From: Candidatus Saccharimonadota bacterium
GTDB lineage: Bacteria; Patescibacteriota; Gracilibacteria; BD1-5; UBA2023
DNA length: 32,000 nucleotides
Direction: 5' to 3'
Assembly: GCA_963706795.1 (NCBI GenBank)
Contig: OY970170.1
Span: 330,001 to 362,000, forward strand
The translations under genes and the position numbers were made by a program. This document shows, one piece after another, positions 625 to 20,246 of this stretch. Below the pieces are notes generated by a model. That model saw only the letters and a program-made list of their open reading frames with translations, was not told the origin of the DNA and did not search any database. Numbering within the stretch: position 1 is the stretch's first letter; each line of letters opens with the position of its first letter.

Positions 625-629
625 GGAAT

Positions 630-2120: not shown

Positions 2121-2139
2121 TTATTGTTCCATCAATAGT

Positions 2140-2882: not shown

Positions 2883-2892
2883 ATTTTAAAGA

Positions 2893-3993
2893 TTAATATC
2901 TCGCAATTCCCATAGCACCCTTTACTTGAGCAAGAGTATTTTTGGCAACGTTTCTAGCTCTTTCGCTTCCGCTCTCGATACATGTTCTTAAAAATGCTTC
3001 TTCGCCATCAATCTGAGCACGTCGAGTGCGAATAGGATCGAGAAAACTATTCAATATATCAGTGAGAATACTTTTCAGTTCTGTATCACTGATTGCCCCA
3101 GCTCTATAGCGGGCTTTGAGTTGATCAATATATTCGATGTCCTTACAAAATGCGTCAAAGTGCATGAAGACAACATTCCCTTCTATTTTCCCTGGATCAG
3201 TAGCACGTATTCGACCTGGATCTGTATACATTTTTTTTACCTTTGCGCGCACTTCGTCTGAACTGTCAGACAGATAGATCGAATTATTAAGACTCTTACT
3301 CATTTTTGCCTTACCGTCTATCCCTGAAAGTCTGCCAACTGGAGCAATTACAGCCTTTGGAAGCTCGAAGGTTTTACCATAGCGATTATTAAAAATACGA
3401 GCAATTTCTCGCGTGAGTTCTATATGTGGAAGCTGATCATCTCATACTGGTACAAGTGTAGCCTTGGGCGTGAGAATATCAGCTGCCTGAGAAACCGGAT
3501 AATTAAAAAATCCTGCTGTGATACTTTCGCCGCGATCTTTTAGTTGTGTCATTTCAGTCTTGAGCGTGGGATTCTGATAGAGACGACTTATTGGTAGAAG
3601 ATTCATTAAAAACATCATAAGTTCCGTGGATTCTGGTACATAGCTCTGAAGAACAAAATCAGCTTTCACTGGATCAAGACCAACAGCAATCCAGTCTTTA
3701 AGAACTTCAAACACATCGGATTTTACTTTTACGACATCTTCTTTGTCAGCCATTACGTGGTAGTCTGCAATCAAAAACTGGCATGCAATATTCGGCATAT
3801 CCTGAATAGTAAGCCAATTATCGAGAGCTCCGACATAGTGACCAAGATGAAGTTTGCCACTTGGGCGCATACCAGTGAGACATGTTTCAATCTTATCACC
3901 AACCAAACCACGGAGAGACTCCATATCTTTAATGATGTGTGAATTCGTAGCGGCGATTACATTGATTTCATTCGAGACAATAGATGATTTCAT
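2893..3993 (-). CDS. trpS: Tryptophan--tRNA ligase
   Basis: ORFs 3442..3993 and 2893..3303 are in one frame. The TGA at 3442-3444 sits in VPV-G-DDQLPHIELTREIA, the conserved PVGxDQ Gly. HIGH-like GKLHLGH and KMSKS are both present. TAA stop at 2893-2895. Confidence 0.92.
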
Positions 3994-4002
3994 GGCAAAA
4001 AT

Positions 4003-4314
4003 TTATGAATATTTGAAGGAGGAATTATTTGGCATACCAGCAACGATATTTCGTAATTTCAGAGATACCTCTGGATTGGTGATGAAGTCAATTTTGGCCT
4101 CGGGTGTAATCACTAATCGAATCAAAACATCGTTCCGAACCTGAGTAATAAGGGATGCGAATATTCTGTCACTGAGATGACATGTGCGATACACAGCTCA
4201 GCTCTCACTTGTAAGTTCCGCCCAAGGCTTTTCGGGATCGTCAATGCCCCTTAGGGAAATATTTCAAACCCTCACTTCTAGTGCTGGTGAAATATAGTTT
4301 TCAGTGCTACTCAT
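4003..4314 (-). CDS. Hypothetical protein (about 103 aa)
   Basis: ORF 4003..4194 extends upstream through TGA at 4198 and 4264 to the ATG at 4312-4314 (MSSTENYISPALEVRVGNISLRG...). It lies 9 nt upstream of trpS. No family recognised. Confidence 0.4.
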
Positions 4315-4367
4315 AGGCAGTAGATAATGAATAAATGTGTCATTTGCAGTATCTTTCCCAACCAAAA

Positions 4368-4413
4368 GAAAAAAACGGAAGATTCACAGAAAAATTTACG
4401 AAAAAGTCATTTT
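4368..4413 (-). promoter_or_regulatory. Conserved about 45-nt leader/promoter motif, copy B
   Basis: GAAAAAAACGGAAGATTCACAGAAAAATTTACGAAAAAGTCATTTT. It sits between a terminator (4429-4462) and the ATG at 4314, about 54 nt upstream of that ATG, which is the same spacing as copy A. Confidence 0.45.
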
Positions 4414-4428
4414 GTCCTGTCTGGATAA

Positions 4429-4462
4429 GAAAAAACCCACCGCTTAAAGCGGTGGGTTTTTT
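4429..4462. terminator. Bidirectional rho-independent terminator
   Basis: A-run, CCCACCGC (4436-4443), loop, GCGGTGGG (4449-4456), then T-run 4457-4462. It lies directly downstream of the ABC ATPase stop at 4477. Confidence 0.8.
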
Positions 4463-4476
4463 GGATTTTCTTTGGA

Positions 4477-5142
4477 TTATTTTGAGATTTCGATGAGTTT
4501 TCCGTCTCGAAGCTCGTAGAGAACATCGGCTCTTTTTGCGACTTCGAGATCATGGGTAATCATGAGGATGGTGTTGCCAGTTTCTGCATGCAGTTCATCA
4601 ATGAGATCCATGATGCGATTAGCATTTTTTCGATCGAGATTACCGGTAGGCTCGTCAGCGAGGAGATACGGAACATTCGCGACAAAGGCTCGGGCAACCG
4701 CAACACGCTGTTGCTCTCAGCCGGAGAGTTCAGTCGGATATCGCTTCCCTTTGCCTGCGAGTCAGACGCGATCTAATATCTCTGCGGTTGTAAAGCGGCG
4801 AGAAACTCCATTGATATCCACAGGAAGGTCAATATTTTCTTCAACTGTAAGATTTGGGATCAGCTCGTATGCCTGAAATATAAAAGCTATATTTTTGCCT
4901 CGAAACTGTGTAATCGCGTCTTCAGAGAGATTAGTGAGATCGGTATTATCCAGAACCACACTTCCCTTTTGTGGTGATATAAGGCCTGAGAGTAGGGAGA
5001 GAAGAGTGGATTTTCCGGAGCCCGAAGGTCCCATAACACAGGCAAACGTACCGGTTGGAACGGCAAAATTGAGATCACGAAATATCTCAACAATTTCTTC
5101 TTCGCTCGAATATGACTTTGAGAGCTGCTTGAGTTCGATCAT
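4477..5142 (-). CDS. ABC transporter ATP-binding protein (LolD/MacB/YbbA-like)
   Basis: Walker A GPSGSGKST; signature ELSG-G(TGA 4717-4719)-EQQRV; Walker B LLADEPTGNLD; H-loop ITHD. ATG at 5140-5142, TAA at 4477-4479. Confidence 0.88.
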
Positions 5143-5143
5143 A

Positions 5144-5800
5144 TTATTTTTGGATGAGGTGATTGCTTTCGAGTGCATTAACCAAGTGATCTACGATGAT
5201 AGCATATCATTCTTTGGTCGGATGAATCCTGTCTGCCTGATTGAGTTTCGGATCAGCGGCTACGCCTTCAAGAAAGAATGGCATAAATGGCACATTGAAT
5301 TCTTTTGCGAGATCTACAAAAACGGACTCAAATTCTGTAGTATAGGTAATTCAGAGATTTGGTGGGGACTTCATTCCAGTGAAGAGAATCGGGATTTTTT
5401 TGGCAACAATTTTCTGTAACACGGCACGGGTATTTTTTTCGAGTTCTTGCGGTGAAATTCATTGGAAGGCGTCATTACCGCCAATTTCGAGAATAACGAG
5501 ATCGGGCGTTCCTCCTTGTAAAATCCAATCTGTTCGGGCGAGGAGTTCGGAGGAAGTATCGCCAGAGACTCCTGCATTTTGAATAGTATATTGGTAGCCT
5601 TTTTCTTTTAATTTTGCCTCGAGCTGAGATGGATAGTTGTCTTTTGGTGACAATCAGAGTCCAGCTGTCAACGAGTCTCAGAGCGCCAAAATAGTACGCG
5701 TTCCCTGTGATGATTGGATCGGAGTCTCTACCACTGGCGCCTTTTGAGTACAAGAAACAAGAGCTAACGAAACGAGCGCGAGAGACAAAAATTTATGCAT
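5144..5800 (-). CDS. SGNH/GDSL lipoprotein esterase (TesA / lysophospholipase L1-like)
   Basis: Signal peptide with lipobox MHKFLSLALVSLALVSC. Block I is ILAL-G(TGA 5678-5680)-DSLTAGL-G(TGA 5654)-L, block II NAGVSGDTS, block III EIGGNDA, block V DRIHPT. The stop TAA 5144-5146 is 1 nt from the ABC ATG. Confidence 0.82.
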
Positions 5801-6938
5801 GTTGACGGCGCAAAAGAGGAAGTGCAAGAAGGAGCGTAAATACAAAAAGTCCTGCACTTGCAAAGTAAGGAGTGGCTGGACTAAATCCATAGAGATATCC
5901 ACCAAGCGCGGGGCCGACGATGCTTCAAAGTCCTACCGAAGCAGTCGCGTAACCCATATATTTACCGACTTCGTGACCAGACTCGTGGGCAATGAGTGAC
6001 GATGATGACGGCTGGAAAGAGCCCATTCCAATTGGGAAAAATGGCACAATAATCCAGATGAGCATCGGATTAACATTCGCTGCTTGGACGAAGAATGAGA
6101 CAGCGAGCAAGGCGAGTGAAAGTACGATCATGATGGTCTCTTTGAGGTATTTTCGAATGTATTTTACAGCAAAACCCTGATACACAATCGCGGTGATACC
6201 TACGGCAATGAGAATATGTGAATACTCAACGGCGCTATACCCAAAAACGTCAAAGTAGAATTGTCCTGAGATTGCCTGCATTGGCGAAAATGCCGTCGTA
6301 GCAAAGAATGAAATCACGAGCAAAAGAACGATTTCTTTTGGAACTCCAAAGCTGTTTTTTGGCGTTTTGATGACTCATTCTGCTGGTACATGGCGCTTTG
6401 GCTCTGGTAAAAAGAATGTAACGAGCAAAAAATTGAGAAATACAAAAAATGCACCCGCATAACCAACGACATGATTACCAAAGGAGGCAAGTACTCAACC
6501 AATCGCTGGCCCAACAAGAAAGCCAAGTCCGAACATCGCACCAATGAGCCCAAGACGAGCGGTTCGATTTTCTTTAGAAGAAATATCCGAGATATATGCT
6601 TGAACGATTCCAATACCTGCCCCTCCGAGTCCGCCGACAAATCGACCTATGAGGAATATCCAAAAAAGTGGCGCGTAAACAATAAAAAGAAATCCGATAA
6701 AATTAAAAAAGGTCGTAGCCATAAGCATCGGACGACGACCAAAGCGGTCAGAAAGTCTTCCAAAAACAAGTCCACCGAGGAACATTCCAGCTGAATAGAT
6801 AGCCATTGTATATCCGACCCATTCAGGACTTACTCCGTAGTCATGAATAATAAAAGGAAGCACTGGAACGAGAACTCCAAGTCCGAGTACATCCAAAAAT
6901 GCCGTAATAAGCACCAACTGAAAAGAAAATTTTTGCAT
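5793..6938 (-). CDS. MFS transporter
   Basis: ORFs 6495..6941 and 5925..6323 share a frame, joined through TGA at 6495, 6375 and 5925. MFS motif A-like GRLSDRFGRRP and multiple hydrophobic helices. TAA at 5793-5795 overlaps the esterase ATG (5798-5800). Confidence 0.8.
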
Positions 6939-6967
6939 CAAAGAAAGATAAAAATAGACCAGAGATT

Positions 6968-7570
6968 CTATCCATTATCCTTAAATCTCCAAAGCAAACG
7001 ACAGGCAGTCGAGCGATACGGGCTCCATGCGAGAGCAATTTCATTTATTCTTTTTTCGAGTGCTTTTCAGGTTTCAGTGAGTCAGAAGAGGCGGACCATA
7101 GATTGTCTGACAACACCATCGCCATAAGCAAAAACATCGGGCCTTCCAAGCGTAAAAATGAGAAGCATATGAACTGTCCAAACACCCACTCAGGTAATTG
7201 CTGTCAGTGTCTTTATGATTTCCTCGTCTGAGAGTGTATGAAAATCCCGATGTAGGAGATCTTTTTCGAGAAATGCCTTCGCAACTTCTCGTAGATAGCG
7301 GGATTTTTGGCCAGATAATCATGCAGATCGAAGCACTGCCGGATCGAGCAAAAGAAGCTTCTCAGGATCCGGAATACGCTCGGGAAAGAGATCAAGAAAT
7401 CTACCATAAATCGTATCTGCTGCCTTAATCGAGAGCTGCTGCGAGACGATAGACTCGAGAAGTTGTTCGTAGATTCCTTCGGATGAAGGAACAATCGGGC
7501 GCAGATCTCACTGAGAAGTCAGTGGAGCTAGGATTGGGTCGGAGCTGAAGAATTGGAGCGCTTCTTTCAT
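6968..7570 (-). CDS. HhH-GPD DNA glycosylase (3-methyladenine DNA glycosylase II / AlkA-like)
   Basis: A third minus frame, absent from the ORF track because it carries 5 TGA codons. MKEALQFFSSDPILAPL...IVSQQLSIKAADTIYGRF...SA-G(TGA)-LSGQKSRYL...AIT-G(TGA 7190-7192)-VGVWTVHMLLIFTLGRPDVFAYGD. TAG at 6968-6970. Confidence 0.8.
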
Positions 7571-7905
7571 TTTTTAGGTGCATTAAGAGCTACGTCATAG
7601 GCCTTTGAGAGCCAGATTTTTATCGCATCGCGATCCTCAAGAATATCGATAGGGACTTCTCGAAAACCGAGTCGGACTTCTTGATTATTGCGCCGATAAG
7701 TAAACCATTTTGCGTCATAAAGATCAAAGTCGCCCATGTTTTCGGGACCAACTTTGAGGTACACAACTCCATCCTCGAGAATACCGACAGCAAGTCAGGA
7801 TTTTTTGATCATATTTCCACCCATCATCGCGCGAATTTCGAGATCAAAAATATCTCAAAAGAGGTCATGCAGGAGGTAATCACGGAATGCGGTATCTTTT
7901 TGCAT
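7528..7905 (-). CDS. TfoX N-terminal domain protein
   Basis: MQKDTAFRDYLLHDLF-G-DIFDLEIRAMMGGNMIKKS-G-LAVGILEDGVVYLKVGPENMGDF...FTYRRNNQEVRLGFREVPIDILEDRD. The pattern matches my memory of TfoX_N. The frame reads through TGA at 7567-7569 to TAG at 7528-7530. Confidence 0.55.
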
Positions 7906-7954
7906 AGACGAAAAATCAATAATTGATACTCTAAGAGAAATAACCCCAAATACA

Positions 7955-8455
7955 ATGAATACCTGTCGATATGTACAGACTTTATACCCTTCTCCGCTTG
8001 GTGTGCTCACACTTGTGGCTAGTCCGAAGGGGCTTCGTGGGATCATTTGGCCAGACCGCAATTTTGCACTTGCGGGACTCGATGAAAAAGACTGCTGCAC
8101 GGGTCAAAGTGCCCATTTTGAAGACGCAAAAAAGCTCCTTTCCGACTATTTTGCTGGCAAGGATGTTGATACAACCAAAATGAGTTTTGATTTTGAAGGC
8201 ACTGACCTGCAAATTGCCGTCTGGAAAGCACTTCTGACTATTCCTCGGGGCACAACCGTGACATACAAAGAACTCGCAAAACGCATAGGAAATCCGACGG
8301 CTATCCGAGCTGTAGCGAGCGCTGTAGGCAAAAATCCATTCTCGATATTATTTGCATGTCACCGAGTTATGGGCTCAGACGGAAAACTCCACGGATTTGG
8401 CGGTGGACTTCCAGCGAAAGAGTGGCTTTTGAAGCATGAGGGGGTGAAGTATTAG
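7955..8455 (+). CDS. ogt: Methylated-DNA--protein-cysteine methyltransferase
   Basis: Intact 166-aa ORF. TVTYKELAKRIGNPTAIRAVASAVGKNPFSILFACHRVMGSDGKLHGFGGGLPAKEWLLKHEG has the (P)CHRV active-site context. TAG stop. Confidence 0.9.
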   Translation: MNTCRYVQTLYPSPLGVLTLVASPKGLRGIIWPDRNFALAGLDEKDCCTGQSAHFEDAKKLLSDYFAGKDVDTTKMSFDFEGTDLQIAVWKALLTIPRGTTVTYKELAKRIGNPTAIRAVASAVGKNPFSILFACHRVMGSDGKLHGFGGGLPAKEWLLKHEGVKY

Positions 8456-8488
8456 GTACAATCAATAACTAGGCAGAATAAGGTGCAC

Positions 8489-8588
8489 GACTGGTAAAAT
8501 ATATGAATATTTTGAAGTCGACTCACTGTGCGTCTCTGAGGTGCCCTCTGCTTTTGTCGATAAGAAATATTCATATATTTTACCAGTC
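8489..8588. repeat. 100-bp element bounded by perfect 24-bp inverted repeats
   Basis: GACTGGTAAAATATATGAATATTT (8489-8512) is the exact reverse complement of 8565-8588, with a 52-nt spacer. It lies between the ogt stop and the terminator at 8614. Confidence 0.7.
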
Positions 8589-9036: not shown

Positions 9037-9131
9037 GTATAAAAAGGCTCATGAGATGCATAGAGCGTTTTTTATGTCGTAATGCCCAGTAGTTCGTATA
9101 ATATCAAAATTATCAAGCCATATCATATCAC

Positions 9132-9572
9132 ATGACAACAAAAAGAAAGTTGCGGGTTCCGGGCCTGCTATCACTGACCTGACTCGGCATATCCCTTTTA
9201 ATTCCCGGTTCGTACGAGGCAATGATGGCACAAATACCACAGGGGATGATATCTCAGAGCGTATCAACTGCTCAGGACATGCGCGAGTACTACAGGGAGA
9301 ATAGCTCGAACTTCAGATACGGCGAAAGGACCGCCGACATCCTCTCGATGGTCGTAGGTTCATATAATTTCGATAACTTTAATGCTTGCCGAAAGATCCT
9401 AGATTCAAACATCATTGCGCGAAAATTGGATGAGAAAATGCTAAATGGGTCTTGCATGGTCGGCATTGGTACGATGAACTGAGCTTTCACCAAAGAGGAC
9501 GAGAAGAGGTTCTTTTACGGATGCCTTATAGATGGACATCCGGCTGCAGAGTGTGCAGCGGTCAAAAAGTAG
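9132..9572 (+). CDS. Hypothetical N-terminally anchored/secreted protein (146 aa)
   Basis: ATG at 9132 (MTTKRKLRVPGLLSLT-G-LGISLLIPGSYEA...). It reads through TGA at 9180 and 9480 to TAG at 9570-9572 and contains track ORF 9222..9482. Confidence 0.5.
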
Positions 9573-9603
9573 GTCTTTCAGAAAAATCCATAAGCTAAAT
9601 ATC

Positions 9604-11334
9604 ATGCAAGACTTTCTATGTCTCATTTGAATAACTAAGTGCGCAGACCCGTTGCTTGTACCCGAGGCCTTCTCCGGTGAATTTATCAGATTCTACGAGC
9701 TATTAAGTCTGATAGGTATCATCATCGCAGGTTTACAATTCATGGATACGAAGATCCTGCGAAGATATCTTTTTCTCAAACACAGAGTCGCCTTCGTCAT
9801 CGGAATAGGACTCTCTGCCGGGTGCCTGATGACTAGTCACCTTGTTCCAATGATGCCATGACAGGCCTTGATATTCATTGGATATCCCTACTTCTGGGAG
9901 ATCCTTTCCATGTCGGCAATTGGCTGAGTAATGACATTTCTCCTTTTGTTCTCCATTTACCACAATAAGGATTCGTGGATAATTAAATATACCACGGAAA
10001 AGAATGTAGAGAACATAAACGGCATAGCGTACCACGCGATAATCGAGGAGCCTTCGGAAGAGACGTATCGCGCATTTTGCAGGATACTCCACATAAACCT
10101 GAGGACGGTTCTGGATGCCCTTAGCCGCTACGACAGGCATACATTCTATTTCACCGCGAGAGACCTAAAGGCGCTGCCGAACAGAGAAGATGATAGGACA
10201 ATCAATAGCATGGCATACTCCAAGGCCTGTTCTGGAACCGAGAAGGAAAAACGCATTACCAGATCAGCGATTGAACTCATCGAGGAAATACTTCCCGATC
10301 CGACCTTCTGCGCATATGTGGCATCGCGGGAATACTGATTATTGCTGGCAATCTTTGAGCAAGCCGAAAAAAAGAGATTGTGGAATTCCTGTGGCGAAGA
10401 TTTCATCCGCGTGCTCTCCGCAAATCTTATGGGCAATGCCAATTCGATCGCCAGCAAGGAGGCGAATCTCGACGGCCTCTATTCGAGAAAGCAGTTAATT
10501 CTGAAAATAGTGAAATCCCCAGGGATACTCGAAAACTACGAAATCATGAATTCTGGCTGCGGAATAACCGACAACAATCACAAGCTTGTAATCTTTCTAG
10601 CCGAACAGATCCTCTCGGAATACTTCTCAACCAAAGCGCTTCAGGAATCACCGCGGTACAGGTTTAAGCTGAAGGGCTTACTTGAGGGGATTATAGGTCC
10701 TTGGCATGCCAAGAGCAGCGGGACTGAGAAGGAATTCGAGATCGAAAATTTTACAAGCACTATTCCCCACATACTCATGCGGGGCTGAAGGTGGCTTCCG
10801 GAATGAGAGGAAAAGACCATGGTTTTCACCGAAAAAGAAAACAAGGCGGAAAAGGATACCCTCACAGGCGAGCTGGCCGAGATGCTTTTCCGGAAATTCG
10901 CAAGGATCCTTCGTAATCCCGAAGCGGACTGGTATTCCGATTCCCAGACCTATTGGTGGATCATATGGAATCACGATGCTTACGAAGACGGCGATTCCGA
11001 AGCAATAGTCAGTATTAGGCGGAAATTCTTGGAACTCCTGAAAGAACGCTTGGAAGATGAGGAAAGATGGCAATGGAAAAACTGATCCGTACTGAAGCTA
11101 CTCCTGACTGTCTTAGGCTGGAAGTTAAACCAATGAGAATTCACCGAGGAGGCAGACATGATCGCCTACTGGATAGAAACATCCTTCAATACCGAGTGGG
11201 CAGAAAGATTCCTGAAGGACGAAAGGTTCCGCGCGGCCAATCTTCCGGCAGATTTTTCCGTGGAGGACGGTAGAATAGTCGATAATGCTCATGGTTCGCA
11301 CGTTGTATATCCAGCGGTCCAAGAAGTCGCATAA
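9604..11334 (+). CDS. Hypothetical multi-pass membrane protein with a large soluble C-terminal region (about 576 aa)
   Basis: Track ORFs 9652..9861, 9931..10338, 10342..10788 and 10819..11085 all lie in the same frame. That frame has no TAA/TAG from about 9604 to TAA at 11332-11334. The N-terminus has about 3 hydrophobic helices. No family recognised. Confidence 0.55.
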
Positions 11335-11361
11335 CCACCCTCGAAGATCGCTCCATGCAAA

Positions 11362-11395
11362 ATTATAAAGCCCTGGATATCCGGGGCTTTATAAT
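11362..11395. other. Perfect 12-bp stem hairpin between genes
   Basis: ATTATAAAGCCC (11362-11373) pairs with GGGCTTTATAAT (11384-11395). Confidence 0.5.
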
Positions 11396-11418
11396 GGACC
11401 AGACCTAATCCATTGCCC

Positions 11419-12525
11419 ATGAAATACCTTCGCGAAGAACCATACTATCAAGACCTCTACGATAAGCGCGTCGTCCACAATTGCAGACTGACAGAAAAAG
11501 CAGCCAGTTCCGTGCCGCCCGAGAAGGTCGGGAAAATGCTCGTTACGAGCAACATAAGCAACTTCATCTTGCAGTTCGAAATGCTCAGGCTTTGAGCAAA
11601 ACGAAGGGAGGTAGTCGAGGAATGGATGGCCAAGGACCGGAAAAGGGATGGGTTTTTTGAGCGAACGCCCGTTCCCAAAGTGCAGTGCGAAAGATGCGGG
11701 AAGGCTTCGCCCGAATACAGGGACAAAACCCTGGAGACCTGATTTTGAAAAAAGCCCGATAGGATTCTCTTCTATTTCAAGTGCGATTCCTGCGGAGGGG
11801 TTACCACCGCCTACGACAACGGCGAGATACTTCCGAACAAAATACCCAAATGCCCAAAATGCCGGCACGAGCTAGCCAGTTCGCCGTACGTAAAGAAATC
11901 CAAGCATATCTACGAATCGAAGAATACCTGTGTCGCGTGCGGCTACGAGTCGATCGAACGAATGGACCTGACTCCGACTCCGCGGACCGAGGAACCCGAT
12001 GCTGAATTCGAAACGGACCGCACCCGCTTCTGCCTGCCGTACGAAGATGCCAAACGAAGGTACGACGAGTGGATCCGAAACCTGGATGAAATGAAGCGGG
12101 TGCTCGACGAAATAAACTGAAAAAAGGAGAACAAGCCCGTATACGATGCGCTGGAAAAGGTACGCAGGCTCAAGATGAAGCCTCTTGAGAAATACTTATC
12201 GGAAGCCTTTTTGAAAGTCGGATATTCGGACTTCAAGCTGTCGAAGCCAGCCGTGGGGAAAGACGTGAGAGCACATTTCACTATGGCAGAATGCGGCGAG
12301 GAGGAAAGCCAGTACGCCAGCGTCAAAAAGGCCAAAGCCAAGCTGGAGGAACTACTGAACGATACCAACTGGACGCTTATGAGCGAGGGGCTGGACTACC
12401 GGCTCGGGATCATCCGCTGAAGACTTCGCGGCATAGACAACAAGGAAGAGCTGTTGAAACTGACGGAACGGAGGATGAAAAATGCCGCGAAAGCAGCATT
12501 GAAGAAAACGGGCAAGGAGGGCTAG
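11419..12525 (+). CDS. Hypothetical double zinc-ribbon protein (368 aa)
   Basis: One frame holds ORFs 11413..11595 and 12175..12420 and stays open through 5 TGA codons to TAG at 12523-12525. Four CxxC pairs: CERCGK...CDSCGG and CPKCRH...CVACGY. Confidence 0.55.
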
Positions 12526-13499
12526 TCAGACTTAGAACGGAATTGCCTCCTCTCGCCGTAGAGGTCCACCTGCTGGATCAGGGTAACCAGGATCAGCCGT
12601 CCTATGAGGCAAATGGAGAAAATCGCTATCGCGATAAGCAGGAGTCACGCGGCAATCTCCAAGAAAAAGTACACCGTGCCGCCGATCGCGAAATAGTTAA
12701 CGGTCCACAGTATTCAGCCGTAGGCATTCTGAAGCATCGTCCAGACCGGAGTTCAGAAGAACAGGCTCCAGAAAGTAATGCCGAAGAGAACAAGGAATCC
12801 AAAGTTGTTTATGCGGTTTACGAACTCCAATTTTCTTACCAGCTCCTTCCTGACCCCTGAAACCTCCTTCTCGGAACAATTCTTCAGCCGGGAGACCACC
12901 AGCTTCCCATAGCTTTCGGCATTGGAAAACCTGTAGGAATTATACGCGGCATGAAAGCCGATGGCGCAGCTTTGGCATACTATCTTCGCGAGTGCCCACC
13001 CATTCTTAAGGCTCATCTTCCTGGTGGACGAGGCAATGAGAGGCAGGACTCAGAAGACGATGGCAGCATAGACGCTTGCCGATCCAAGGACTTGAAGCTG
13101 CTCCTGATTGGGCTTCATCAGCCACGAAAGCAAAAACAGTCACAAAAGAGCGGATGTCTCCATGCAGAGGATTATCCAGAAGAACATCGGTTTTCATTTT
13201 CCAGAAGGCTTCTTCTTCGCGGACATGTCGTTCAGTCCCCATACCGAGAAGACCACAAGGCTCGCGAAAAGGGCCGTGATTATTACCGCATTCCAAGGCC
13301 ACGCAGGAGTAGAATGGGTCTGTCAGAGAAAATACACGAGAAAGATTATGGCGATCGCGAATATTCACGCGTATTTCGCAGTTGCCGAAAAGAGATATTG
13401 AGTACCTCTTTCCTCTATTTTGATGCCGCTGTAAAAGTTTGTCCGGTGCATGAAGTCCGTGACTAGGTCGTAAGCAATGTCTTCAGGCTTAAACTTCAT
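12522..13499 (-). CDS. Hypothetical polytopic membrane protein (325 aa)
   Basis: ATG at 13497-13499 (MKFKPEDIAYDLV...). The frame holds ORF 12753..13016 and continues through several TGA codons to TAG at 12522-12524. It has many hydrophobic segments (IFAIAIIFLVYFL, FGFLVLFGITFWSLFF, LLLIAIAIFSICLIG). It starts 32 nt downstream of the hamB stop on the same strand. Confidence 0.6.
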
Positions 13500-13531
13500 T
13501 GTTTAATTGGAATTATGACTCATGTATTGGG

Positions 13532-16500
13532 TTATGAGACAGTAGCATAGATATAATTTTCAAGCTCTTTCTTAATCATGTTTTTTCCTTTTTTTGAGAG
13601 AGCATCGAGTAATCTTGTCTTATTTTTGATAAAATATTCCCTTGAATCCGCACTTCCATTTTCCGGGCGCATGAATCCATTGTGCCAAAGATAGATAGCC
13701 GACTCCCGCGACACGCCCAAGCTGACAAGGTACACTAGATTTGGAAGACAGGTCCCAAGTTCTAGGTAATAGAGGAAATTGACATCCAGCTTTCTATGCT
13801 CAAACTCAGCCGTATTAAAATCTCCACTAAGCTCAAGATATCTCTTGAAACCGAGGTTGACCACATCGAAATATACCCCGAAAGCATTCAGATACTCAAA
13901 CAACATGAGATCATTTATGGCTGTTAAAGTACTCATGTGGTATTTGGATTCGCCCGCCAAAATACTTTTCAGCGGTATGGAATTAATCCAACGATTGATC
14001 AGGCTAGTCAAGTATCAATCATATCTGTCTCAGTGGTGCATCAATCTTATCTCACCTTTGATCCTGGTAGGCTCTTGGACGATTAAAAATTTCTGCACTT
14101 CCTTTAGAAGCACGCCTATATCGAGACTCTTCTGTTTTCTGAAAAATTTCTTACCTTCTTTAGTAAAAAACTCCTCTTCTGAAAGATCAATATTCCGTAA
14201 AACCGAAAATATGTCGGAATATTTTTCTATAAATTTCGACATCTCGGCTCATCGTGCTATAACATTCTCGTATAAGTCAATCTGCTTACGCGGATCAGTG
14301 AAGATATTCTTCCTAATGACTGCAAAAAGCTCTTCATCGTCCGATATACCATTCCCCCTATCGACAGAGACGCGGGAAATTTCCGCGTAGATACCACCTA
14401 TGGATTTGTATAACTCTTGTAGCCTATCCTCTTTCTCGAAATGATCGCCCGGAATGTAATTCCTTATTTCATTGGCATATGAGAAAGCGCCTGTAAAGCC
14501 TGTGTCTGTTGTATGCCGAGGTAGATTGGCCCTTATGTTCAAAAGATTGGCCAGTGACTCAGGGGCACCAAGCTTATTTTCACGAAGCTTGGCATTGAGC
14601 ATTGTCTGATCCATATGTCTCACCAACAGGAAGCCCGTCATGTATTCGAAATCCTTCCTCTCGGAAAAAGAACTACCGCCTGTAGAAATTGGAGATTTGT
14701 ATTCATCGGAAGAGACATCGATATATTTGAGAAAACGCTCAAATTTTCAGCCATTCGCCCTCTCATCATCACGGAAAAAATCATCAAACTGACTCGGCAT
14801 CATTTCCGCAGCTCATCAATCAACAGGCAATTTGTCGGCATGCTCATCCTTCTTCAGGCCAATGAAGAATACATTGCCGCTGAGGTGCTTATTAAGCCTG
14901 CCTGCCCTTCATACCAGATTCTTTAAGTCTAATGGGCTAATGCTCTCCTTTCAAAAGTCAGATCACACGAAGATATTCTTTGCTGGCAAGTTCACGCCTT
15001 CCAGCAGCGTTGAATTTGCGCAGAGATAGCGCAGGCTTCCCGTCTTGAAAAGTTCTTCTATGCTGGTCTTTATCGAGATCGGAAGGGCTCAATTATGATA
15101 TGCCACACCTTTTTTCAGAAAATCGTTCAAGGTGAAGTCTTGCGGTAGAATATCTCTCAGGTATTCAGAAAGGCCGTTATTGGAGCCACTGGAATCCTCG
15201 AGTCACAGACATAGCGACTCCGCCTGTGATATGACCGTATCCTTTCAGTATCTGAAGAGTATTGAAGAATATCCGTCCCGGCTAAACAGGGGTGCCACGA
15301 GGGCGAGCATATCGCGCTGAATGGCCTTTCATTTCTGCTTGCCAAGATTGAATGAAAACAGCTCTTCATTGACTCAGCGAATATTCACGTCAACGGAAAA
15401 AGATCCCGCACCCAATGATGTTACATGGATAAGGTTCTTATTAACAAGTCAAAAGTTCGAAAAGCTATAAGAAATACTCTTCAGTCTGAATGCCTTTTCA
15501 AGGCCACTCAAGCCTTTAAGAAGAGGTGCCAAAAAACATATTTGCACACCAGGCTGATCTTTGCGGATTTCCTGGATAATGTAGCTTAACAGTATTCATC
15601 TATAGCCATAGGAAACTTTGTGCGCCTCATCAACCACGATGAAATCAACCGGAAAGATAAGCTTGTGGCGTCAATATTTTAAGTCCGAGTACAAGTAATT
15701 GAGCCTCTCCTGAGTAAAAAGGAATAGATTTGATTTTATTCTGAAATTATTCACATACTCGTCTCAGCCTATATAGGTATGCACGGACACATTTCACAGA
15801 AGATTGAGTTCCGTTAAGCTTTCCAAAAAATCATTCTTGAGTTCATTTACCAAAGCTTTTGTCGGGACAACAAAGACTACATTGGAAAGCCTTCCTTCGG
15901 CCTTAGCTTTCGCAAGCAAAGAAAGTATATAAAGCTTAAGCGTGAAAGTTTTTCCGGCGGAAGTAGGCGCGGATACCGCCAATGACTTACGCTCCTTGAG
16001 AACAGAGAAGACACTCGACTGAAAATCAGAGAAGAATACCTGTCTATCTAGATCCGATCAAAGCTCTTCTCGAAATGAAAATCGGTTTGATGCTTCCTTT
16101 AGCGATGCCTCAATCTTCCAATGAATTCCAAGCGAAATGGGCTCTACGCCGTCTATTTTCAGATTGCGGGCATCCGAGAGAATTCACAGCCGGGTAAATA
16201 TGCTGTAGATGATGGCGTTATCTTCAAAACATGAGTGAATCTCCACATTTTCACGCCCAAAAGGACCAGAGACTGTCTCTCCATAATAGTATGCACTGAC
16301 AGCGATGCGATACGCCATGTTGCGCATATCATCAATCTCTTCAATTTCATCCTCAGACTCCGATCATGTCAATCTTAATGCTGCGAATAGGAATGCTGTT
16401 TGGAGCAGTTTCCCGAGAATAGAAGAAGAAAGTTTTGAGCACTCATTTTTTAAGGAAGAGTCAATTGCGCTAATCAAAATCTGATCATTGGCTATGCTCC

Positions 16501-16621
16501 GTAAATCGCAAAGCGCACCTATTCTAAATATAAGCCCGTAGTCCTCTTCGAACGATTCCTCTTGAGCTATCTTTCGGCAAAGCCCCAGGACACGGTTGAA
16601 ACCGAAACTAGACTGTCCCAT
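13532..16621 (-). CDS. hamB: Hachiman HamB-like SF2 (Ski2/Hel308-type, DExH) helicase, 1029 aa
   Basis: Track ORFs 16364..16621, 15794..15982, 14249..14641, 14030..14242 and 13532..14011 are one frame, joined by about 22 TGA codons. Motif I SAPTSAGKT, motif II VVDEAH, motif V LCANSTLLEGVNLPA, motif VI LVGRAGRL. TAA at 13532-13534. Confidence 0.7.
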
Positions 16622-17777
16622 GTGTTGGTTTTAGTTTTTTCAAGAAACATTGTATGAGCTCTAGTTCATTTATGAGCGGCAGAAGAAAGATGGTCATTTT
16701 CCTTCCTCAAAGTTCAGTACTGATGGCATTGTAAGACTTAAGAGTTTTATGAATTCTCTTCAGGGTTACGTCGTTGAGGTACGTCATTTCGGGAATTTTT
16801 CCACTAACACAATTCGCATACTCAAAACATCAATACGAAATCAATGAAATGAGACCAAAGGGAATTTCCTCGAGTTGTTTGGCACGGTTCCAACTTCATA
16901 AGTACGGCAGAAATTGACCGCCAAAATTGGCATTCTCTAGGAGTTTGAATTTTTCTTCAGCATGCACGGCATGCGTTGAAATGATGGCAACCTCATTGTT
17001 CAAATCGCCTCCCCCTGTATTTAATAGGAATTCACGATTACTTTCCAGGGCATCAGACAGTGAATCATAGAATGACCTTGTAATCTTGGCTTCAAGAAAA
17101 TTATAAAATACTTCTCAATCCACAACCCCTATGTGTATCCCATCGGATCACTTCGATTTATCGTCACCGGAGGATTTGCAAAGACGTATCTTTGAAAAGA
17201 GGAGTGGAAAACCCAGAAATCATTCCACAAGGTAGAACAAAAGAAATTCCCCAACATCTCCATGCAGGTGACCAAGAATTTCCCTTGCAGTCTGTACCGA
17301 TCAGGATTTAAATAGGAATGATTGATCTTCTTTCAAAACCTCCAGCGTTATGCTTACCATGTGTTTTTGCAGGGCATCCGCAGCTTTTTTTCGAAAGTCC
17401 TTACTTTTAGACTTAAGTTCAGTTGCGGTCTTACAACCCATGCTAGCAAGGACAACATCATCGAGAAGCACTCCTACCACTTCGTTATACCTATTGAAGC
17501 GCTCTTTTACATACTCGATCATTCAAGGCTTGTGCGCTCAATCAAAGAAATAGTCGGTAATTTTTCCAAACAGAATACCTAAAAACTCATCATAGGTTTT
17601 TCAGGCTTTGATTTCGATCTTGAAAATATCACAGTTTTGATAGTACTCGGCGTCATCTAGCTTTAGAAGATCTCCAATTTTAAGACTTCTCTTCAAAAAG
17701 AAGTCATCAAAAATACCATCAAAATCAGTTTTTTTGATGGTACAGAAATCTCTTATATCCTCAACCACGTTAGACAT
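16608..17777 (-). CDS. hamA: Hachiman HamA-like protein (DUF1837-type putative nuclease), 389 aa
   Basis: ATG at 17775-17777. The frame includes ORF 17301..17522 and about 10 TGA codons, ending at TAG 16608-16610, which overlaps the hamB ATG by 14 nt. The core GDVGEFLLFYLVEGFLGFPLLFSKIRLCKSS...GSDGIHIGVV...FLEAKI resembles the DUF1837 GE..L / K / D-G-h-H / E-x-K pattern from memory. Confidence 0.55.
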
Positions 17778-18143: not shown

Positions 18144-18184
18144 GTATGCGAGGGCCAACCGGGGAAATCCTAACCTATCGCTAT

Positions 18185-19357
18185 ATGAAAGTATGTCCAT
18201 TTTGCTCACAACAGGTGCAAGATGATGCAATCAGGTGCACAAATTGCCTATCGAATCTCTCGACATACGAAGCAAGAGAGAAAATACGCCTGCAAGAGGA
18301 GGACGAACGAGACAAAGCAATGAAATTCCGAAGCGCCAACTGGCCTGAATACATAGCAGAATACCTCAGGGAAAACACGGCAATCTTCAAAAGACTACAG
18401 GACAAAACGGATTCCGAGATAATCGAGACGGTTCTGGAGGAGAAACGGGAATCAAACATGACAATATTCTATCTGCTCGGAGCGCTCATATCATTCGCAG
18501 GATTCATATGGCTCAATGTCTCACCTGGCGCATTTCCCAAAATTCTCTGCTTCGGACTGCTGGCTTCCATATGGCTACACCCCGAAAAGGCGCGAGAATG
18601 ACTTTCGGACGTGGGCCGGCGCATCGCGCAGATTAGAAAGTACCCGGCAAGACTTCTGTCTTCGATCATTATGATTGCGTGCTCCTTCTGGGCAATCTCG
18701 TCATCGGAGGCAAGATTGGCAGACGAAGCATCCTACAGTAAACCGACAATCGAAATCAAGAGTCCGCAGGGAGCGCAAACAGGTTCCGTCTACCTGCTCA
18801 AATTCACGGCCTCCGGTGCGGATACGGTCAAAGTTGATGGACAGCTGCTGACGGCAAGCGGCGGACTTTACAGCAAGTCGCTAGAAATGAAGCAGCCATC
18901 CATTTCGATATACATCGAAGCGCTGAACAAGTACCATTCGGACTCACAGCGCATAAATGTCTCGCGACCAAAAAGCTCGGTGGAGATTCAAGCGGAAGCC
19001 GAGAGAATTACAAAAGAGAAAGCGGAAACCGCAAGACTGGAAAACGAGCGAAAGAAGGCAGAACAGCAAAGGCAGGCTCTAGCACAAAAAGAGGAAAAAT
19101 TGAAAACGATGCTTACCCAGAAGTACGAAAGGATAGTCAAGGCCGGCGGATACATCTATGAAATCGAAAACAAACTGGCGGATCTGGACTTTTACCAGAC
19201 GGACAGCGGGCTCGCGAAAGCTCCGGATGGGTCAACCCAGGCCTATATGATCTATAAGAAGGAGGATCAATGACACGTCGTGTATGTATTCCTCCAATAC
19301 GGCTACTCATCCAGATATTGGTACAGGGTCACACTGGACGCTCCACCCACGCCTTAG
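18185..19357 (+). CDS. Zinc-ribbon / transmembrane / coiled-coil protein (about 390 aa)
   Basis: MKVCPFCSQQV..IRCTNC zinc ribbon. TM segments MTIFYLLGALISFAGFIWL and LLSSIIMIACSFWAI. A Lys/Glu-rich coiled coil (AEAERITKEKAETARLENERKKAEQQRQALAQKEEKLK). ORFs 18146..18601 and 18611..19273 are in frame, joined by TGA. TAG at 19355-19357. Confidence 0.55.
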
Positions 19358-19417
19358 TCTAATCGGGGTTGATTTCGATCGCAGTCGCCTAGAATGCTCC
19401 CGAAATAACAATGCCCC

Positions 19418-20158
19418 ATGCCACGGAAATTCCCACACCCGAAAGTACAGTTGGACCGAGCTAGAATTATCGCTCCGTATCTCAGACTATTGGAAGATGG
19501 AAGCGAGGATTTCCAAAAAGACGTCGAAAACCTCCGGGCCAAATACAAGATCCCGAAGGGTAGTTGGGAAAACCCGCTCCGTCAGCTCCTAGAACAGGAC
19601 TACTGGAACCCCGGGTTCCAGTCCAACGGAGTCGTGACCATGTACGATGATGACAGACGGATTTTATGGAGAAAATTCCATGAGGATGTCGAAGCTCTCG
19701 CAAAGAAGTACAGGCTGGAGACATTGCCGAGTATCCTGAAGGAATTCGTGCTCGAAAACTGGTTCGGCGACGGAATTCGCCCCTACAGGATGGAAGCCTC
19801 GAGCGACTGATCCTGGACGCTGAAGATGTCTCGCACGATAAAAAAGAAAGAATTAGATGTCGCATGGATAGAATTCCAGCAAATCCATAAGAAGCTGCCA
19901 AACATCATCACTGATTTTACCGGCCACCCCGCCCAATCGGTTAGGAAATACGACTTAATTCAAGAGATTTCGAATAAATACGATTGAGACAAGGCCCTGC
20001 TTTTACTGCTCATCAAGAAAGAACTTTTCGGAAACCTTACGGCAGACGAGGAGCGAATATTAGAGAGATGAAATGACTCTGGAAAATTCAAACTGAACAA
20101 ACACATCGAAAATATATTCTCAATTCTGAAAGACTTCGGAAACTCTACGAATTGCTAA
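19418..20158 (+). CDS. Hypothetical protein (246 aa under table 25)
   Basis: ORF 19418..19810 reads through TGA at 19808, 19985 and 20069 to TAA at 20156-20158. No family recognised. Confidence 0.45.
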
Positions 20159-20204
20159 GTTTCAACTGAAACTTAGCAATTCCGAAAGCTGAATCCCGAT
20201 AGAA

Positions 20205-20238
20205 ATAGACCGAGCACACCGCTCGGTCTATTTTTTTC
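20205..20238 (+). terminator. Rho-independent terminator
   Basis: ATAGACCGAGC (20205-20215), loop ACACC, GCTCGGTCTAT (20221-20231), then a T-run. Confidence 0.75.
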
Positions 20239-20246
20239 TTTTACCT

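What the first reader, a model, noticed from the sequence alone, without database searches (positions are those of the whole stretch)
9132..13499. Uncharacterised four-gene membrane/zinc-ribbon cassette at the island's left end
The cassette has three plus-strand genes: a small N-terminally anchored protein (9132-9572), a 576-aa protein with about 3 TM helices and a large soluble domain (9604-11334), and a 368-aa protein with four CxxC pairs (11419-12525). These converge on a 325-aa polytopic membrane protein (12522-13499).

I recognise no family for any of them. The long frames have no TAA/TAG over 1.0-1.7 kb, which argues for real coding. The position, between the island edge and a defence operon, is typical of accessory, defence or superinfection-exclusion cargo. 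This is the best candidate in the window for something undescribed.
Basis: inference. Interest (0 to 1): 0.7.

Follow-up and report, generated by a model that had tools for sequence, protein, structure and literature searches.

The report
Unrelated orphan genes in mobile-element cargo
The four reading frames are real genes once TGA is read as glycine, but they are not one system. They are separately inherited passenger and backbone genes of a small integrated mobile element in a candidate-phyla bacterium, and two of them belong to undescribed protein families that repeatedly sit beside anti-phage defence genes.

Summary
With TGA read as Gly (code 25), the coordinates give:
- A: 146 aa, exported or membrane-anchored
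- B: 576 aa, 3 TM helices plus an all-alpha domain
- C: 368 aa, four CxxC pairs
- D: 325 aa, 6-7 TM helices

None of the four matches Pfam, NCBIfam, PHROGs, PADLOC or PDB sequences.

The "cassette" reading fails, because the four genes never co-occur elsewhere.

- **B** belongs to a sparse, phylogenetically scattered family: 43 representatives among 1.84 billion proteins. In other contigs it is a fixed member of SNF2-B-methylase-Res operons. It also lies next to restriction-system fragments, RhuM, DUF3644, or a satellite-type integrase.
- **C** belongs to a family found across many candidate-phyla (CPR) lineages. It flanks variable defence clusters in small elements that carry a serine integrase and TerS/TerL. 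The window's roughly 19-kb island next to tRNA-Ser is one of these elements.
- **A and D** have no detectable relatives. D lies 32 nt downstream of hamB on the same strand.

All four share the element's high GC3. Hachiman does not.

Best reading: independent cargo and backbone genes of a defence-carrying integrative element. Their functions are inferred from context only. Interest is moderate.

The parts
9132..9572 (+). Gene A: a 146-aa orphan with a basic N-terminus, a 16-residue hydrophobic stretch (signal peptide or anchor) and 4 Cys. It contains 2 in-frame TGA codons. B starts 31 nt after its stop.
   Evidence: The codon model favours this frame (+0.06, all others negative). No family hit. 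No relative in 30 loci or in GenBank phages. GC3 is 0.56, like the element.
9604..11334 (+). Gene B: 576 aa, with 3 N-terminal TM helices (26-44, 62-80, 100-118) followed by about 450 aa of all-alpha soluble domain. It contains 8 in-frame TGA codons. It belongs to an undescribed family of roughly 540-600-aa proteins.
   Evidence: The AlphaFold model of homologue P0001 is all-helical with pLDDT 55. None of 23 members hits Pfam. The ORF is longer than in any of 200 shuffles.
11362..11395 (.). Palindrome with 17-nt arms (94% complementary, no spacer) between B's stop and C's start. It may be an operator or a transcript boundary.
   Evidence: (I8). It is not conserved upstream of C homologues.
11419..12525 (+). 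Gene C: 368 aa. It has an N-terminal helical region, two zinc ribbons (four CxxC pairs), a conserved acidic PDxxFExDRxRFC motif, and a C-terminal domain ending in TNW..RLGI..GRLRG. It belongs to a CPR-wide family.
   Evidence: Pfam gives only generic zinc-ribbon hits. The TGA at codon 334 aligns with an invariant Gly.
12522..13499 (-). Gene D: a 325-aa orphan polytopic membrane protein with 6-7 TM helices and a 74-aa basic cytoplasmic loop. Its stop codon overlaps C's stop in a CTAG palindrome. Its start lies 32 nt after the hamB stop on the same strand.
   Evidence: No homologue. The only family signal is a sub-threshold DUF3422 match (20.1 bits against a cut-off of 25).
13532..17777 (-). Hachiman operon: hamA at 16608-17777 and hamB at 13532-16621. 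It occupies the same variable slot as D, between C and the element backbone, but has host-like GC3.
   Evidence: PADLOC HamB E=2.8e-93 and HamA E=4e-19. Pfam HamA and DEAD. GC3 is 0.39-0.46. The corresponding slot in L008 holds other genes.
18146..27862 (+). Element backbone and right end:
- zinc-ribbon membrane protein, 18146-19357
- unknown gene, 19418-20158
- ParB-methylase, 20073-21551
- second methylase, 21553-22302
- TerS-like, 22305-22727
- TerL, 22730-24217
- large serine recombinase, 24277-25665
- OLD-family nuclease, 25773-27374
- tRNA-Ser(GGA), 27773-27862, on the minus strand
   Evidence: Synteny with L008. Shared gene clusters with L012, L016, L018 and L031.
8489..8588 (.). Perfect inverted repeat with 24-nt arms and a 52-nt loop, in the 676-nt non-coding stretch between the host MGMT gene and gene A. 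This is the approximate left border of the island.
   Evidence: An independent contig, 100% identical to window 1-8548, ends inside the loop. GC3 changes from host-like (MGMT 0.43) to element-like (A 0.56) across it.

Best explanation
**Setting.** The window comes from a TGA=Gly (code 25) bacterium of the Gracilibacteria type. Positions about 8.5-27.8 kb are an integrated mobile element. It carries a large serine recombinase, TerS and TerL, two DNA methylases and an OLD nuclease, and it ends next to tRNA-Ser. No capsid genes are visible. A-D lie in its variable arm. They are four independently inherited genes, not one system.

**C** is a backbone or anchor gene of this element family, which occurs across many CPR lineages. 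It sits at the edge of slots that hold different defence systems in different genomes. From its two conserved zinc ribbons and its position, I infer that it binds nucleic acid. It would then act either in the element's own regulation or maintenance, possibly integrase directionality, or as a general partner of the adjacent defence cargo.

**B** is a passenger from a rare, horizontally scattered family of membrane-anchored all-alpha proteins. Elsewhere this family is built into SNF2-B-methylase-Res operons, or lies beside restriction fragments, RhuM or DUF3644, or a satellite-type integrase. I infer that it is a membrane-located accessory of restriction-type immunity, acting as a sensor, scaffold or abortive-infection-like effector. 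Here it is detached from those partners and is probably co-transcribed with the small exported orphan A.

**D** is an orphan membrane protein in the same slot as Hachiman. It may be transcribed as a third gene after hamA-hamB. Its likely role is a membrane effector or exclusion protein.

**Shown:**
- gene reality for B and C
- family distributions
- genomic contexts
- shared composition
- absence of co-occurrence

**Inferred:** every functional statement above.
For: **Genetic code.**

**Element.** Integrase, methylases and OLD, TerS and TerL, tRNA-Ser.

**Composition.** GC3 is 0.56/0.56/0.66/0.65 for A-D and 0.56-0.78 for the backbone. It is 0.32-0.44 for host genes and 0.39-0.46 for hamAB.

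**C family.**
- Three relatives in the 5.8-billion-protein set, 12 loci in GTDB genomes from many CPR lineages, 1 metagenome locus and 1 IMG/VR contig.
- Neighbouring genes in these loci:
  - Mod/Res: L007, L009, L013, L015
  - Type I restriction-modification (R-M): L014, L031
  - AIPR + Dcm + AspBHI-type nuclease + Ymh: L010
  - KAP NTPase: L009, L012
  - SMODS + SLATT: L012
  - DUF6119: L017
  - OLD: L008
- The serine integrase, ParB-methylase, TerS and TerL recur in L008, L012, L016, L018 and L031.
- L008 is syntenic with the window from C to the integrase, but carries different genes in the slot that here holds D + hamAB.

**B family.**
- 43 hits among 1.84e9 representatives, nearly all full length.
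- Hosts include Deltaproteobacteria and Omnitrophota MAGs.
- The SNF2-B-MTase-Res operon recurs in L001 and in L028/L029, with identities of 70% (SNF2), 46% (B), 76% (MTase) and 69% (Res).
- Other contexts:
  - HsdS fragment-B in a conjugative element
  - HsdR_N fragment-B-RhuM, with AbiEii nearby
  - HTH-B-tyrosine integrase in an AlpA/DUF3987 element
  - B-DUF3644
- RhuM-like and DUF3644-overlapping HEPN proteins are described as toxin-type genes embedded in R-M operons (PMC3710099).
- Variable defence cargo flanked by conserved genes of phages and satellites is an established pattern (PMC9122126).
Against: - No function was tested, and both structure models are of low confidence (pLDDT 55 and 43). 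The roles proposed for B, C and D rest only on neighbourhood.
- In L016 the host genes xseA/xseB lie between C and the element backbone. In several C loci no integrase was seen within the 10 kb fetched. C could therefore be a resident of defence islands and not a backbone gene.
- One B locus (L026) shows no defence context.
- A and D have no relatives at all, so their status as functional genes rests on intrinsic statistics.
- The element borders are not defined by repeats.
- The loci were found by searching for B or C, so the neighbourhood counts are not an unbiased enrichment test.
Confidence: 0.55

Rival explanations
1. A-B-C, with or without D, form one new multi-gene defence or superinfection-exclusion system whose parts work together.
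For: - The genes are adjacent. A and B are 31 nt apart on one strand, and all four share GC3 of 0.56-0.66.
- They sit beside Hachiman in a mobile element.
- None has a known family.
Against: - B and C were never found together in nine other B-family loci and 14 other C-family loci. A and D are absent from all of them.
- B has other fixed partners (SNF2, Mod, Res) elsewhere.
- A palindrome separates B from C.
- D is on the opposite strand, behind hamB.
Confidence: 0.07
2. C is itself a stand-alone defence gene, with a zinc-ribbon sensor and a C-terminal effector. It collects in defence islands like other single-gene systems and has no role in the mobile element.
For: - C lies next to at least eight different kinds of defence genes.
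- In L009, L010 and L014 no integrase was seen in the fetched region.
- In L016 host xseAB lie between C and the element genes.
Against: - C is syntenic with the integrase/TerS/methylase backbone in the window, L008, L012, L016, L018 and L031.
- In L018 the small element has almost nothing else: integrase, two small genes, TerL, TerS and C.
- No catalytic or toxin motif was recognised, and PADLOC gave no hit.
Confidence: 0.2
3. A and/or D are not functional genes. They would be chance or decaying ORFs, and D could be the antisense shadow of a plus-strand gene.
For: - No homologue of A or D was found in any search.
- ORFs of up to 384 codons arise by chance when TGA is not a stop.
- A 567-codon plus-strand ORF lies in exact register with D. 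It scores about as well as D under host-trained and combined codon models.
Against: - With the island-trained codon model, D's frame scores +0.142 against -0.012 for the antisense frame. A's frame is the only positive one.
- D has well-spaced TM helices, with basic residues confined to alternate loops.
- D's GC3 of 0.65 matches the element.
- The antisense product is an Arg/Glu-rich low-complexity sequence that would have to overlap C by 675 nt.
Confidence: 0.1
4. The genes are ordinary phage or satellite life-cycle genes that have diverged too far to recognise. Examples would be holin/spanin-like lysis genes for A and D, or a replication or packaging accessory for C.
For: - The element encodes TerS and TerL, and one C locus is an IMG/VR viral contig.
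- Membrane proteins and zinc-ribbon proteins are common in phage lysis and early regions.
Against: - A-D give no significant PHROGs hits.
- There are no tblastn hits in 50,697 GenBank phage records.
- B gave no IMG/VR hit in the one scan that could be run, and C gave only one in two scans.
- No endolysin, capsid, portal or tail gene is present in the island.
- B homologues occur in non-phage contexts, namely a conjugative element and R-M operons.
Confidence: 0.08

Closest known systems
Defence hotspots of P2-like phages and P4-like satellites (Rousset et al. 2022, PMC9122126)
   Same: - Small integrated elements in which conserved element genes flank slots filled with different anti-phage systems in different genomes.
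- Here the slots beside C hold Hachiman, restriction systems, KAP NTPase, OLD or CBASS-like genes, depending on the genome.
- One B homologue sits between an HTH gene and the integrase of an AlpA/DUF3987 element (L030).
   Different: - The hosts are CPR bacteria, some of them TGA-recoded.
- The integrase is a large serine recombinase.
- The element carries both TerS and TerL but no recognised replication or capsid genes.
- The conserved flanking gene (C) is an undescribed zinc-ribbon protein.
- Mobility and helper dependence are untested.
Secondary toxin or abortive-infection genes embedded in restriction-modification operons: PrrC/RloC, RhuM-like, and DUF3644-overlapping HEPN proteins (Anantharaman et al. 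2013, PMC3710099)
   Same: - B-family genes occupy the same kind of position, inside or directly beside restriction operons and their fragments.
- In two loci the direct neighbour is RhuM or DUF3644.
   Different: - B has no HEPN, ABC-ATPase, Fic/Doc or nuclease signature.
- The only invariant residues across 23 members are S281, E286 and P548.
- It is membrane-anchored and all-alpha.
- No toxicity or activation mechanism is known.
DISARM class 1 (DrmD SNF2 helicase, DrmMI methylase, DrmA helicase, DrmB DUF1998, DrmC). The gene list is from my own knowledge.
   Same: The SNF2-B-methylase-Res operons in L001, L028 and L029 combine an SNF2 helicase, an N6/N4 methylase, a large ResIII helicase and a protein of about 570 aa with unknown function.
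   Different: - B has no DUF1998 match, and 0 of 23 members hit any Pfam family.
- B has three TM helices.
- The large helicase carries a TnsA-like nuclease N-terminus.
- No PLD gene is present.
- None of these partners is present in the window.
Hachiman (HamA/HamB)
   Same: D lies directly downstream of hamB on the same strand, with a 32-nt gap, and could be co-transcribed with it.
   Different: - D matches no Hachiman component in PADLOC.
- Its GC3 of 0.65 differs from that of hamAB (0.39-0.46).
- No other Hachiman locus with a D-like gene was found, because D has no homologues.
Phage-inducible chromosomal islands and other phage satellites
   Same: An integrase plus terminase genes and defence cargo, with no capsid or tail genes, in an element of about 19 kb next to a tRNA gene.
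   Different: - There is no recognised primase/replicase and, in the window, no repressor module.
- Both terminase subunits are present.
- The integrase is a serine recombinase.
- No helper phage is known.

Membership tests
Genetic code 25 (TGA = Gly) genome | In-frame TGA codons align with conserved Gly, not Trp or stop, in homologues from standard-code organisms. | tested here: met
   - AlkA-like glycosylase against PDB: TGA aligns with the G of the GxG helix-hairpin-helix motif.
- B codons 9 and 86, and C codon 334, align with G (14/22, 9/22 and 14/14).
- ORF coverage collapses under the standard code.
Zinc-ribbon proteins (gene C) | Paired CxxC...CxxC knuckles conserved across homologues. 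| tested here: met
   - Seven ribbon Cys are invariant in 15 sequences. The eighth is Cys or His.
- Pfam DZR and Zn_ribbon_8 hit 5 and 2 members, but only with sub-threshold scores.
- The rest of the protein matches nothing.
DUF3422 (Pfam PF11902), for gene D | Whole-protein score at or above the gathering cut-off of 25 bits. | tested here: not met
   The score is 20.1 bits (E=4e-4) over 50 residues of a 418-position model.
Hachiman, with D as a component | A match to a HamA, HamB or accessory model in PADLOC. | tested here: not met
   D gives no PADLOC hit at E<=0.1. The neighbouring genes match HamB (2.8e-93) and HamA (4e-19).
Any described defence-system protein (PADLOC-DB v2), for A, B and C | A significant match to a PADLOC model. 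| tested here: not met
   Only A gave a match, to PD-T4-2_B at E=0.039, which is not significant. B and C gave none.
DISARM DrmB (DUF1998), for gene B | Presence of the DUF1998 domain. | tested here: not met
   - No Pfam family at E<=0.01 in any of 23 B-family members.
- No PADLOC hit.
Phage structural, lysis or housekeeping families (PHROGs) | A significant PHROG match with an annotated function. | tested here: not met
   - A, B and D gave none.
- C gave only phrog_14808 (unknown function, E=0.012).
- No tblastn hit in GenBank phages.
Conserved four-gene operon (the cassette) | The same genes recur together in other genomes. | tested here: not met
   tblastn and tblastx of A-D against all fetched loci that carry B or C found no locus with more than one of the four.
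Integrative element of the serine integrase + TerS/TerL type (for the island and gene C) | A large serine recombinase, both terminase subunits and the ParB-methylase syntenic with C in unrelated genomes. | tested here: met
   - Shared gene clusters in L008, L012, L016, L018 and L031.
- Not every C locus shows these genes within 10 kb.
Phage satellite (PICI-like) | Helper-phage-dependent excision, replication and packaging. | not testable with these tools
   Only the gene content fits: integrase and terminase genes, no capsid or tail genes.

The most novel reading that the evidence does not exclude
Gene C marks a previously undescribed family of small satellite-like integrative elements found across CPR lineages. 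They carry a serine integrase, TerS/TerL and a ParB-methylase, and their variable slots are defence hotspots. Gene B is the membrane subunit of a new SNF2-B-methylase-Res restriction-type system. In this window B, together with the exported orphan A, acts as a free-standing membrane-based anti-phage or exclusion module.
Probability: 0.3. Interest if true: 0.65.

Novelty: new variant of a known kind. Interest (0 to 1): 0.42.

Why it matters
CPR bacteria have tiny genomes and few recognised immune systems. Organisms that use code 25 are also mistranslated by default pipelines, so their accessory genes are close to invisible in protein databases.

This locus yields two undescribed protein families with consistent links to defence or mobile elements:
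- **B family:** a membrane-anchored partner found in restriction-type operons.
- **C family:** a zinc-ribbon protein that flags variable defence slots across many CPR lineages.

If the context-based inferences hold, C could serve as a practical marker for mining CPR defence hotspots. SNF2-B-Mod-Res would be a new restriction-type architecture with a membrane component.

If they do not hold, the locus is still a clear example of why adjacent orphan genes should not be read as an operon-level system.

Tried and rejected
**Family and sequence searches, all negative:**
- Pfam, NCBIfam, PHROGs and PADLOC scans of A-D gave nothing significant.
- Profile searches of PDB sequences with 3-23-member alignments of B and C gave nothing.
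- tblastn of A-D against GenBank phages, and of B against PLSDB plasmids, gave no match.

**Structure prediction:**
- Both models are poor, with pLDDT 55 and 43.
- Foldseek of the B model against PDB gave only generic alpha-solenoid hits with TM about 0.2, which I disregard.
- The C model was not searched, because it is too unreliable.

**Collection scans:**
- The IMG/VR scan for B found none. A second scan with the 23-member alignment could not run, because no stretch was conserved enough.
- The first IMG/VR scan for C found none. The second, with the wider alignment, found one contig.
- The GTDB scan for B found none.

**Island borders and RNA:**
- No att-type direct repeat of 11 nt or more was found between the two island ends. 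That is expected for a serine integrase, so it is not informative.
- Rfam found no RNA family in the window.
- The promoter and terminator scan gave no more sites than shuffled sequence.
- No conserved palindrome was found upstream of C homologues.

**Readings rejected:**
- TGA = Trp (code 4): aligned positions are Gly.
- The plus-strand ORF 11763-13466 as a gene: it is an antisense shadow of D, it overlaps C, and it encodes an Arg/Glu-rich product.
- The earlier ATG at 9532 as B's start: homologues begin at 9604.

Full report
**1. Genetic code and the observation**

Under the standard bacterial code, 9.1-13.5 kb contains only short ORFs. When only TAA and TAG count as stops, the whole 32-kb window resolves into long frames.
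- A: 9132-9572(+), 146 aa
- B: 9604-11334(+), 576 aa
- C: 11419-12525(+), 368 aa
- D: 12522-13499(-), 325 aa

TGA encodes Gly.
- In the neighbouring AlkA-type glycosylase, TGA positions align with the Gly residues of solved homologues.
- Within the finding, B codon 9 aligns with G in 14 of 22 homologues. B codon 86 aligns with G in 9 of 22.
- C codon 334 aligns with a Gly that is invariant in 14 of 14.

A C homologue is annotated as Candidatus Gracilibacteria.

**2. Are the frames more than chance?**

When TGA is not a stop, long ORFs are common. In 200 dinucleotide-preserving shuffles of 9100-13520, the longest ORF averaged 226 +/- 44 codons, with a maximum of 384.
- Only B's frame (600 codons stop to stop) is beyond this range.
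- C and D are not. A 567-codon antisense ORF (11763-13466+) lies in exact codon register with D.

Homologues validate B and C, and their alignments start at the proposed ATG codons.

D is supported by three lines of evidence:
- It has 6-7 well-spaced hydrophobic helices. Lys+Arg in successive loops alternate 0/5/1/14/0/4, as the positive-inside rule predicts.
- A codon model trained on island genes scores it +0.142, against -0.012 for the antisense frame.
- Its GC3 is element-like.

A is the weakest of the four. Its frame is the only one with a positive codon score, and it has a basic-then-hydrophobic N-terminus.

**3. No described family**

- Pfam, NCBIfam, PHROGs and PADLOC give nothing significant for A-D. 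C shows only generic zinc-ribbon similarity. D has a sub-threshold DUF3422 match of 20.1 bits against a cut-off of 25.
- Scans of 23 B-family members gave zero Pfam hits. Scans of 15 C-family members gave only zinc-ribbon models.
- Profile searches of all PDB sequences found nothing.
  - The B model is all-helical, with pLDDT 55.
  - The C model shows a beta-rich ribbon region between helical ends, with pLDDT 43.
- Foldseek of the B model returned only generic alpha-solenoids with TM about 0.2. I do not interpret these.

**4. The surroundings: an integrated element**

To the left of the island lie housekeeping genes: TrpRS, an MFS transporter, an AlkA-like glycosylase and MGMT. To the right of D lie:
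- hamB/hamA, the Hachiman system (PADLOC E=2.8e-93 and 4e-19)
- a zinc-ribbon membrane protein
- a ParB-methylase and a second methylase
- TerS-like and TerL genes (Terminase_6C, GpA_ATPase)
- a large serine recombinase
- an OLD-family nuclease
- tRNA-Ser(GGA)

No capsid, portal or tail gene is present.

GC3 separates three groups of genes:

| Group | GC3 |
|---|---|
| Host genes | 0.32-0.44 |
| hamA/hamB | 0.39-0.46 |
| A, B, C, D | 0.56, 0.56, 0.66, 0.65 |
| Element backbone | 0.56-0.78 |

So A-D belong compositionally to the element. Hachiman looks like a separate acquisition.

The ends share no direct repeat of 11 nt or more, which is expected for a serine integrase. A perfect 24-nt inverted repeat at 8489-8588 lies just after MGMT. 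An independent contig, 100% identical to window 1-8548, ends in its loop.

**5. Gene B elsewhere**

The word-indexed search of 5.8 billion proteins found two relatives, at 60% and 37% identity. Both come from TGA-recoded contigs.

An exhaustive HMMER search of 1.84 billion cluster representatives found 43 proteins at E<=1e-3 and 26 at E<=1e-10. Most are full-length, at 540-600 aa. They come from Deltaproteobacteria and Omnitrophota MAGs as well as recoded contigs. Those that carry a source name are called hypothetical or uncharacterised. Only S281, E286 and P548 are invariant.

The contexts are informative:
- In L001, and independently in L028/L029, B sits in a tight SNF2(990 aa)-B-N6/N4 methylase-ResIII(963 aa) operon. 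Between these loci the partners are 70%, 76% and 69% identical, while B is only 46% identical.
- In L023/L024, B follows an HsdS fragment inside a conjugative element.
- In L020, B lies between an HsdR_N fragment and RhuM, with AbiEii and HipAB nearby.
- In L025, B is followed by DUF3644.
- In L030, B lies between an HTH gene and the tyrosine integrase of an AlpA/DUF3987 element.
- In L026, no defence context is apparent.

RhuM-like and DUF3644-overlapping HEPN proteins are described as toxin-type genes embedded in restriction operons (PMC3710099). None of these loci contains A, C or D.

**6. Gene C elsewhere**

The indexed search gave three relatives. Pattern scans then gave:
- one metagenome contig
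- one IMG/VR contig

Across 15 sequences the following are conserved:
- seven ribbon cysteines
- an N-terminal ..CR motif
- the PDxxFExDRxRFC motif
- the C-terminal TNW...RLG...G.LR motif

All-against-all clustering of neighbouring genes shows that C loci share the window's backbone genes:

| Backbone gene | Number of loci |
|---|---|
| Serine recombinase | 7 |
| ParB-methylase | 7 |
| TerS-like | 4 |
| TerL | 3 |

L008 is syntenic with the window in the order C, zinc-ribbon membrane protein, unknown gene, two methylases, TerS and integrase. In the slot after C it carries a 265-aa gene plus an S24 repressor, where the window has D + hamB + hamA.

The genes adjacent to C are nearly always defence genes, but of different kinds:
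- Mod/Res: L007, L009, L013, L015
- Type I R-M: L014, L031
- AIPR + Dcm + AspBHI-type nuclease + Ymh: L010
- KAP NTPase: L009, L012
- SMODS + SLATT: L012
- DUF6119: L017
- OLD: L008
- an SNF2 helicase: L004

This matches the pattern described for P2/P4 hotspots, where conserved element genes bracket variable anti-phage cargo (PMC9122126). There is a caveat. In L016 the host genes xseA/xseB lie between C and the element genes. Several loci also show no integrase in the region fetched.

**7. Genes A and D**

Neither has a relative in the 5.8-billion-protein set (D only), in any of the 30 loci fetched by then, or in GenBank phages.
- A ends 31 nt before B.
- D starts 32 nt after the hamB stop on the same strand. 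Its stop overlaps C's stop in a CTAG palindrome.

So D's likeliest transcriptional partner is Hachiman, although its composition matches the element and not hamAB.

**8. Synthesis**

The four frames are genuine genes, or in A's case probably genuine, and none belongs to a described family. They are not a cassette.
- C is a conserved companion of a CPR-wide integrase/terminase element and of its defence slots.
- B is a rare passenger whose relatives are built into, or parked beside, restriction-type systems.
- A and D are lineage-specific envelope proteins.

My functional proposals are inferences from context and carry low to moderate confidence:
- B as a membrane accessory of restriction-type immunity.
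- C as a nucleic-acid-binding regulator or maintenance factor, or a general defence partner.
- D as a membrane effector or exclusion protein.

What is new is the two protein families and the element type. The kind of thing, defence cargo on a small integrative element, is known.

**9. Scores**

- Interest is 0.42. The locus offers two undescribed families with defence associations in an under-annotated, recoded lineage, plus a candidate SNF2-B-Mod-Res architecture. No mechanism has been demonstrated, and the premise of a four-gene system is refuted.
- The most novel reading is that C marks an undescribed CPR satellite-like element family with defence hotspots, and that B is the membrane subunit of a new restriction-type system. 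I give it a probability of about 0.3.

Noticed in passing
window 1-32000: The whole window, host genes and island alike, decodes TGA as glycine (code 25). Between 0 and 38% of Gly codons per gene are TGA.
   Followed up: yes
window 8489-8588: A perfect inverted repeat with 24-nt arms and a 52-nt loop lies directly after the MGMT stop. An independent public contig (L019), 100% identical to window 1-8548, ends inside the loop. It could be an assembly break, a terminator, or a site related to the island border.
   Followed up: partly
window 13532-17777: The Hachiman operon (hamA, hamB) has host-like GC3 of 0.39-0.46. The surrounding element genes have 0.56-0.78. This suggests it entered the slot between C and the backbone separately.
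   Followed up: partly
window 18146-27862; L012, L016, L018, L031: The island carries a serine integrase, TerS, TerL, ParB-methylase, a second methylase and an OLD nuclease, but no capsid, portal or tail genes. The same backbone recurs in standard-code CPR genomes and in one IMG/VR contig. This looks like a satellite-like element family of CPR bacteria. I found no description of it in the four literature searches I ran.
   Followed up: partly
L001 7030-16250; L028 5028-14331; L029 882-10185: A tight four-gene operon, SNF2 helicase-B homologue-N6/N4 methylase-ResIII/TnsA-like helicase-nuclease, is conserved between diverged recoded contigs. B is its fastest-evolving member, at 46% identity against about 70% for the partners. 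It is a candidate undescribed restriction-type system.
   Followed up: partly
window 12522-12525: The convergent genes C and D end in overlapping stop codons within a CTAG palindrome, with no terminator between them.
   Followed up: no
window 11362-11395: A palindrome with 17-nt arms and no spacer lies 24 nt upstream of C's start codon. It is not conserved upstream of C homologues.
   Followed up: partly
window 21402-21454 and 22156-22208: A 53-nt direct repeat at 85% identity corresponds to the same catalytic-motif region (DxFGGSGST) in two adjacent paralogous DNA methylase genes.
   Followed up: no
L008 (CAYZVC010000001.1): The record is titled 'Candidatus Peribacteria', but its housekeeping ORFs need TGA recoding. 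For example, a ProRS-like gene has 7 in-frame TGA codons. Either the bin is mislabelled or this lineage is recoded.
   Followed up: no
window 11763-13466 (+): A 567-codon antisense shadow ORF in exact codon register with D gives an Arg/Glu-rich product. A longest-ORF gene caller under code 25 would pick it in preference to C and D.
   Followed up: yes
window 29660-31850 (-): Three consecutive genes with type IV pilin-like N-termini (a hydrophobic helix following a KGFTLIE-type motif) lie just outside the island, beyond the tRNA-Ser side.
   Followed up: no
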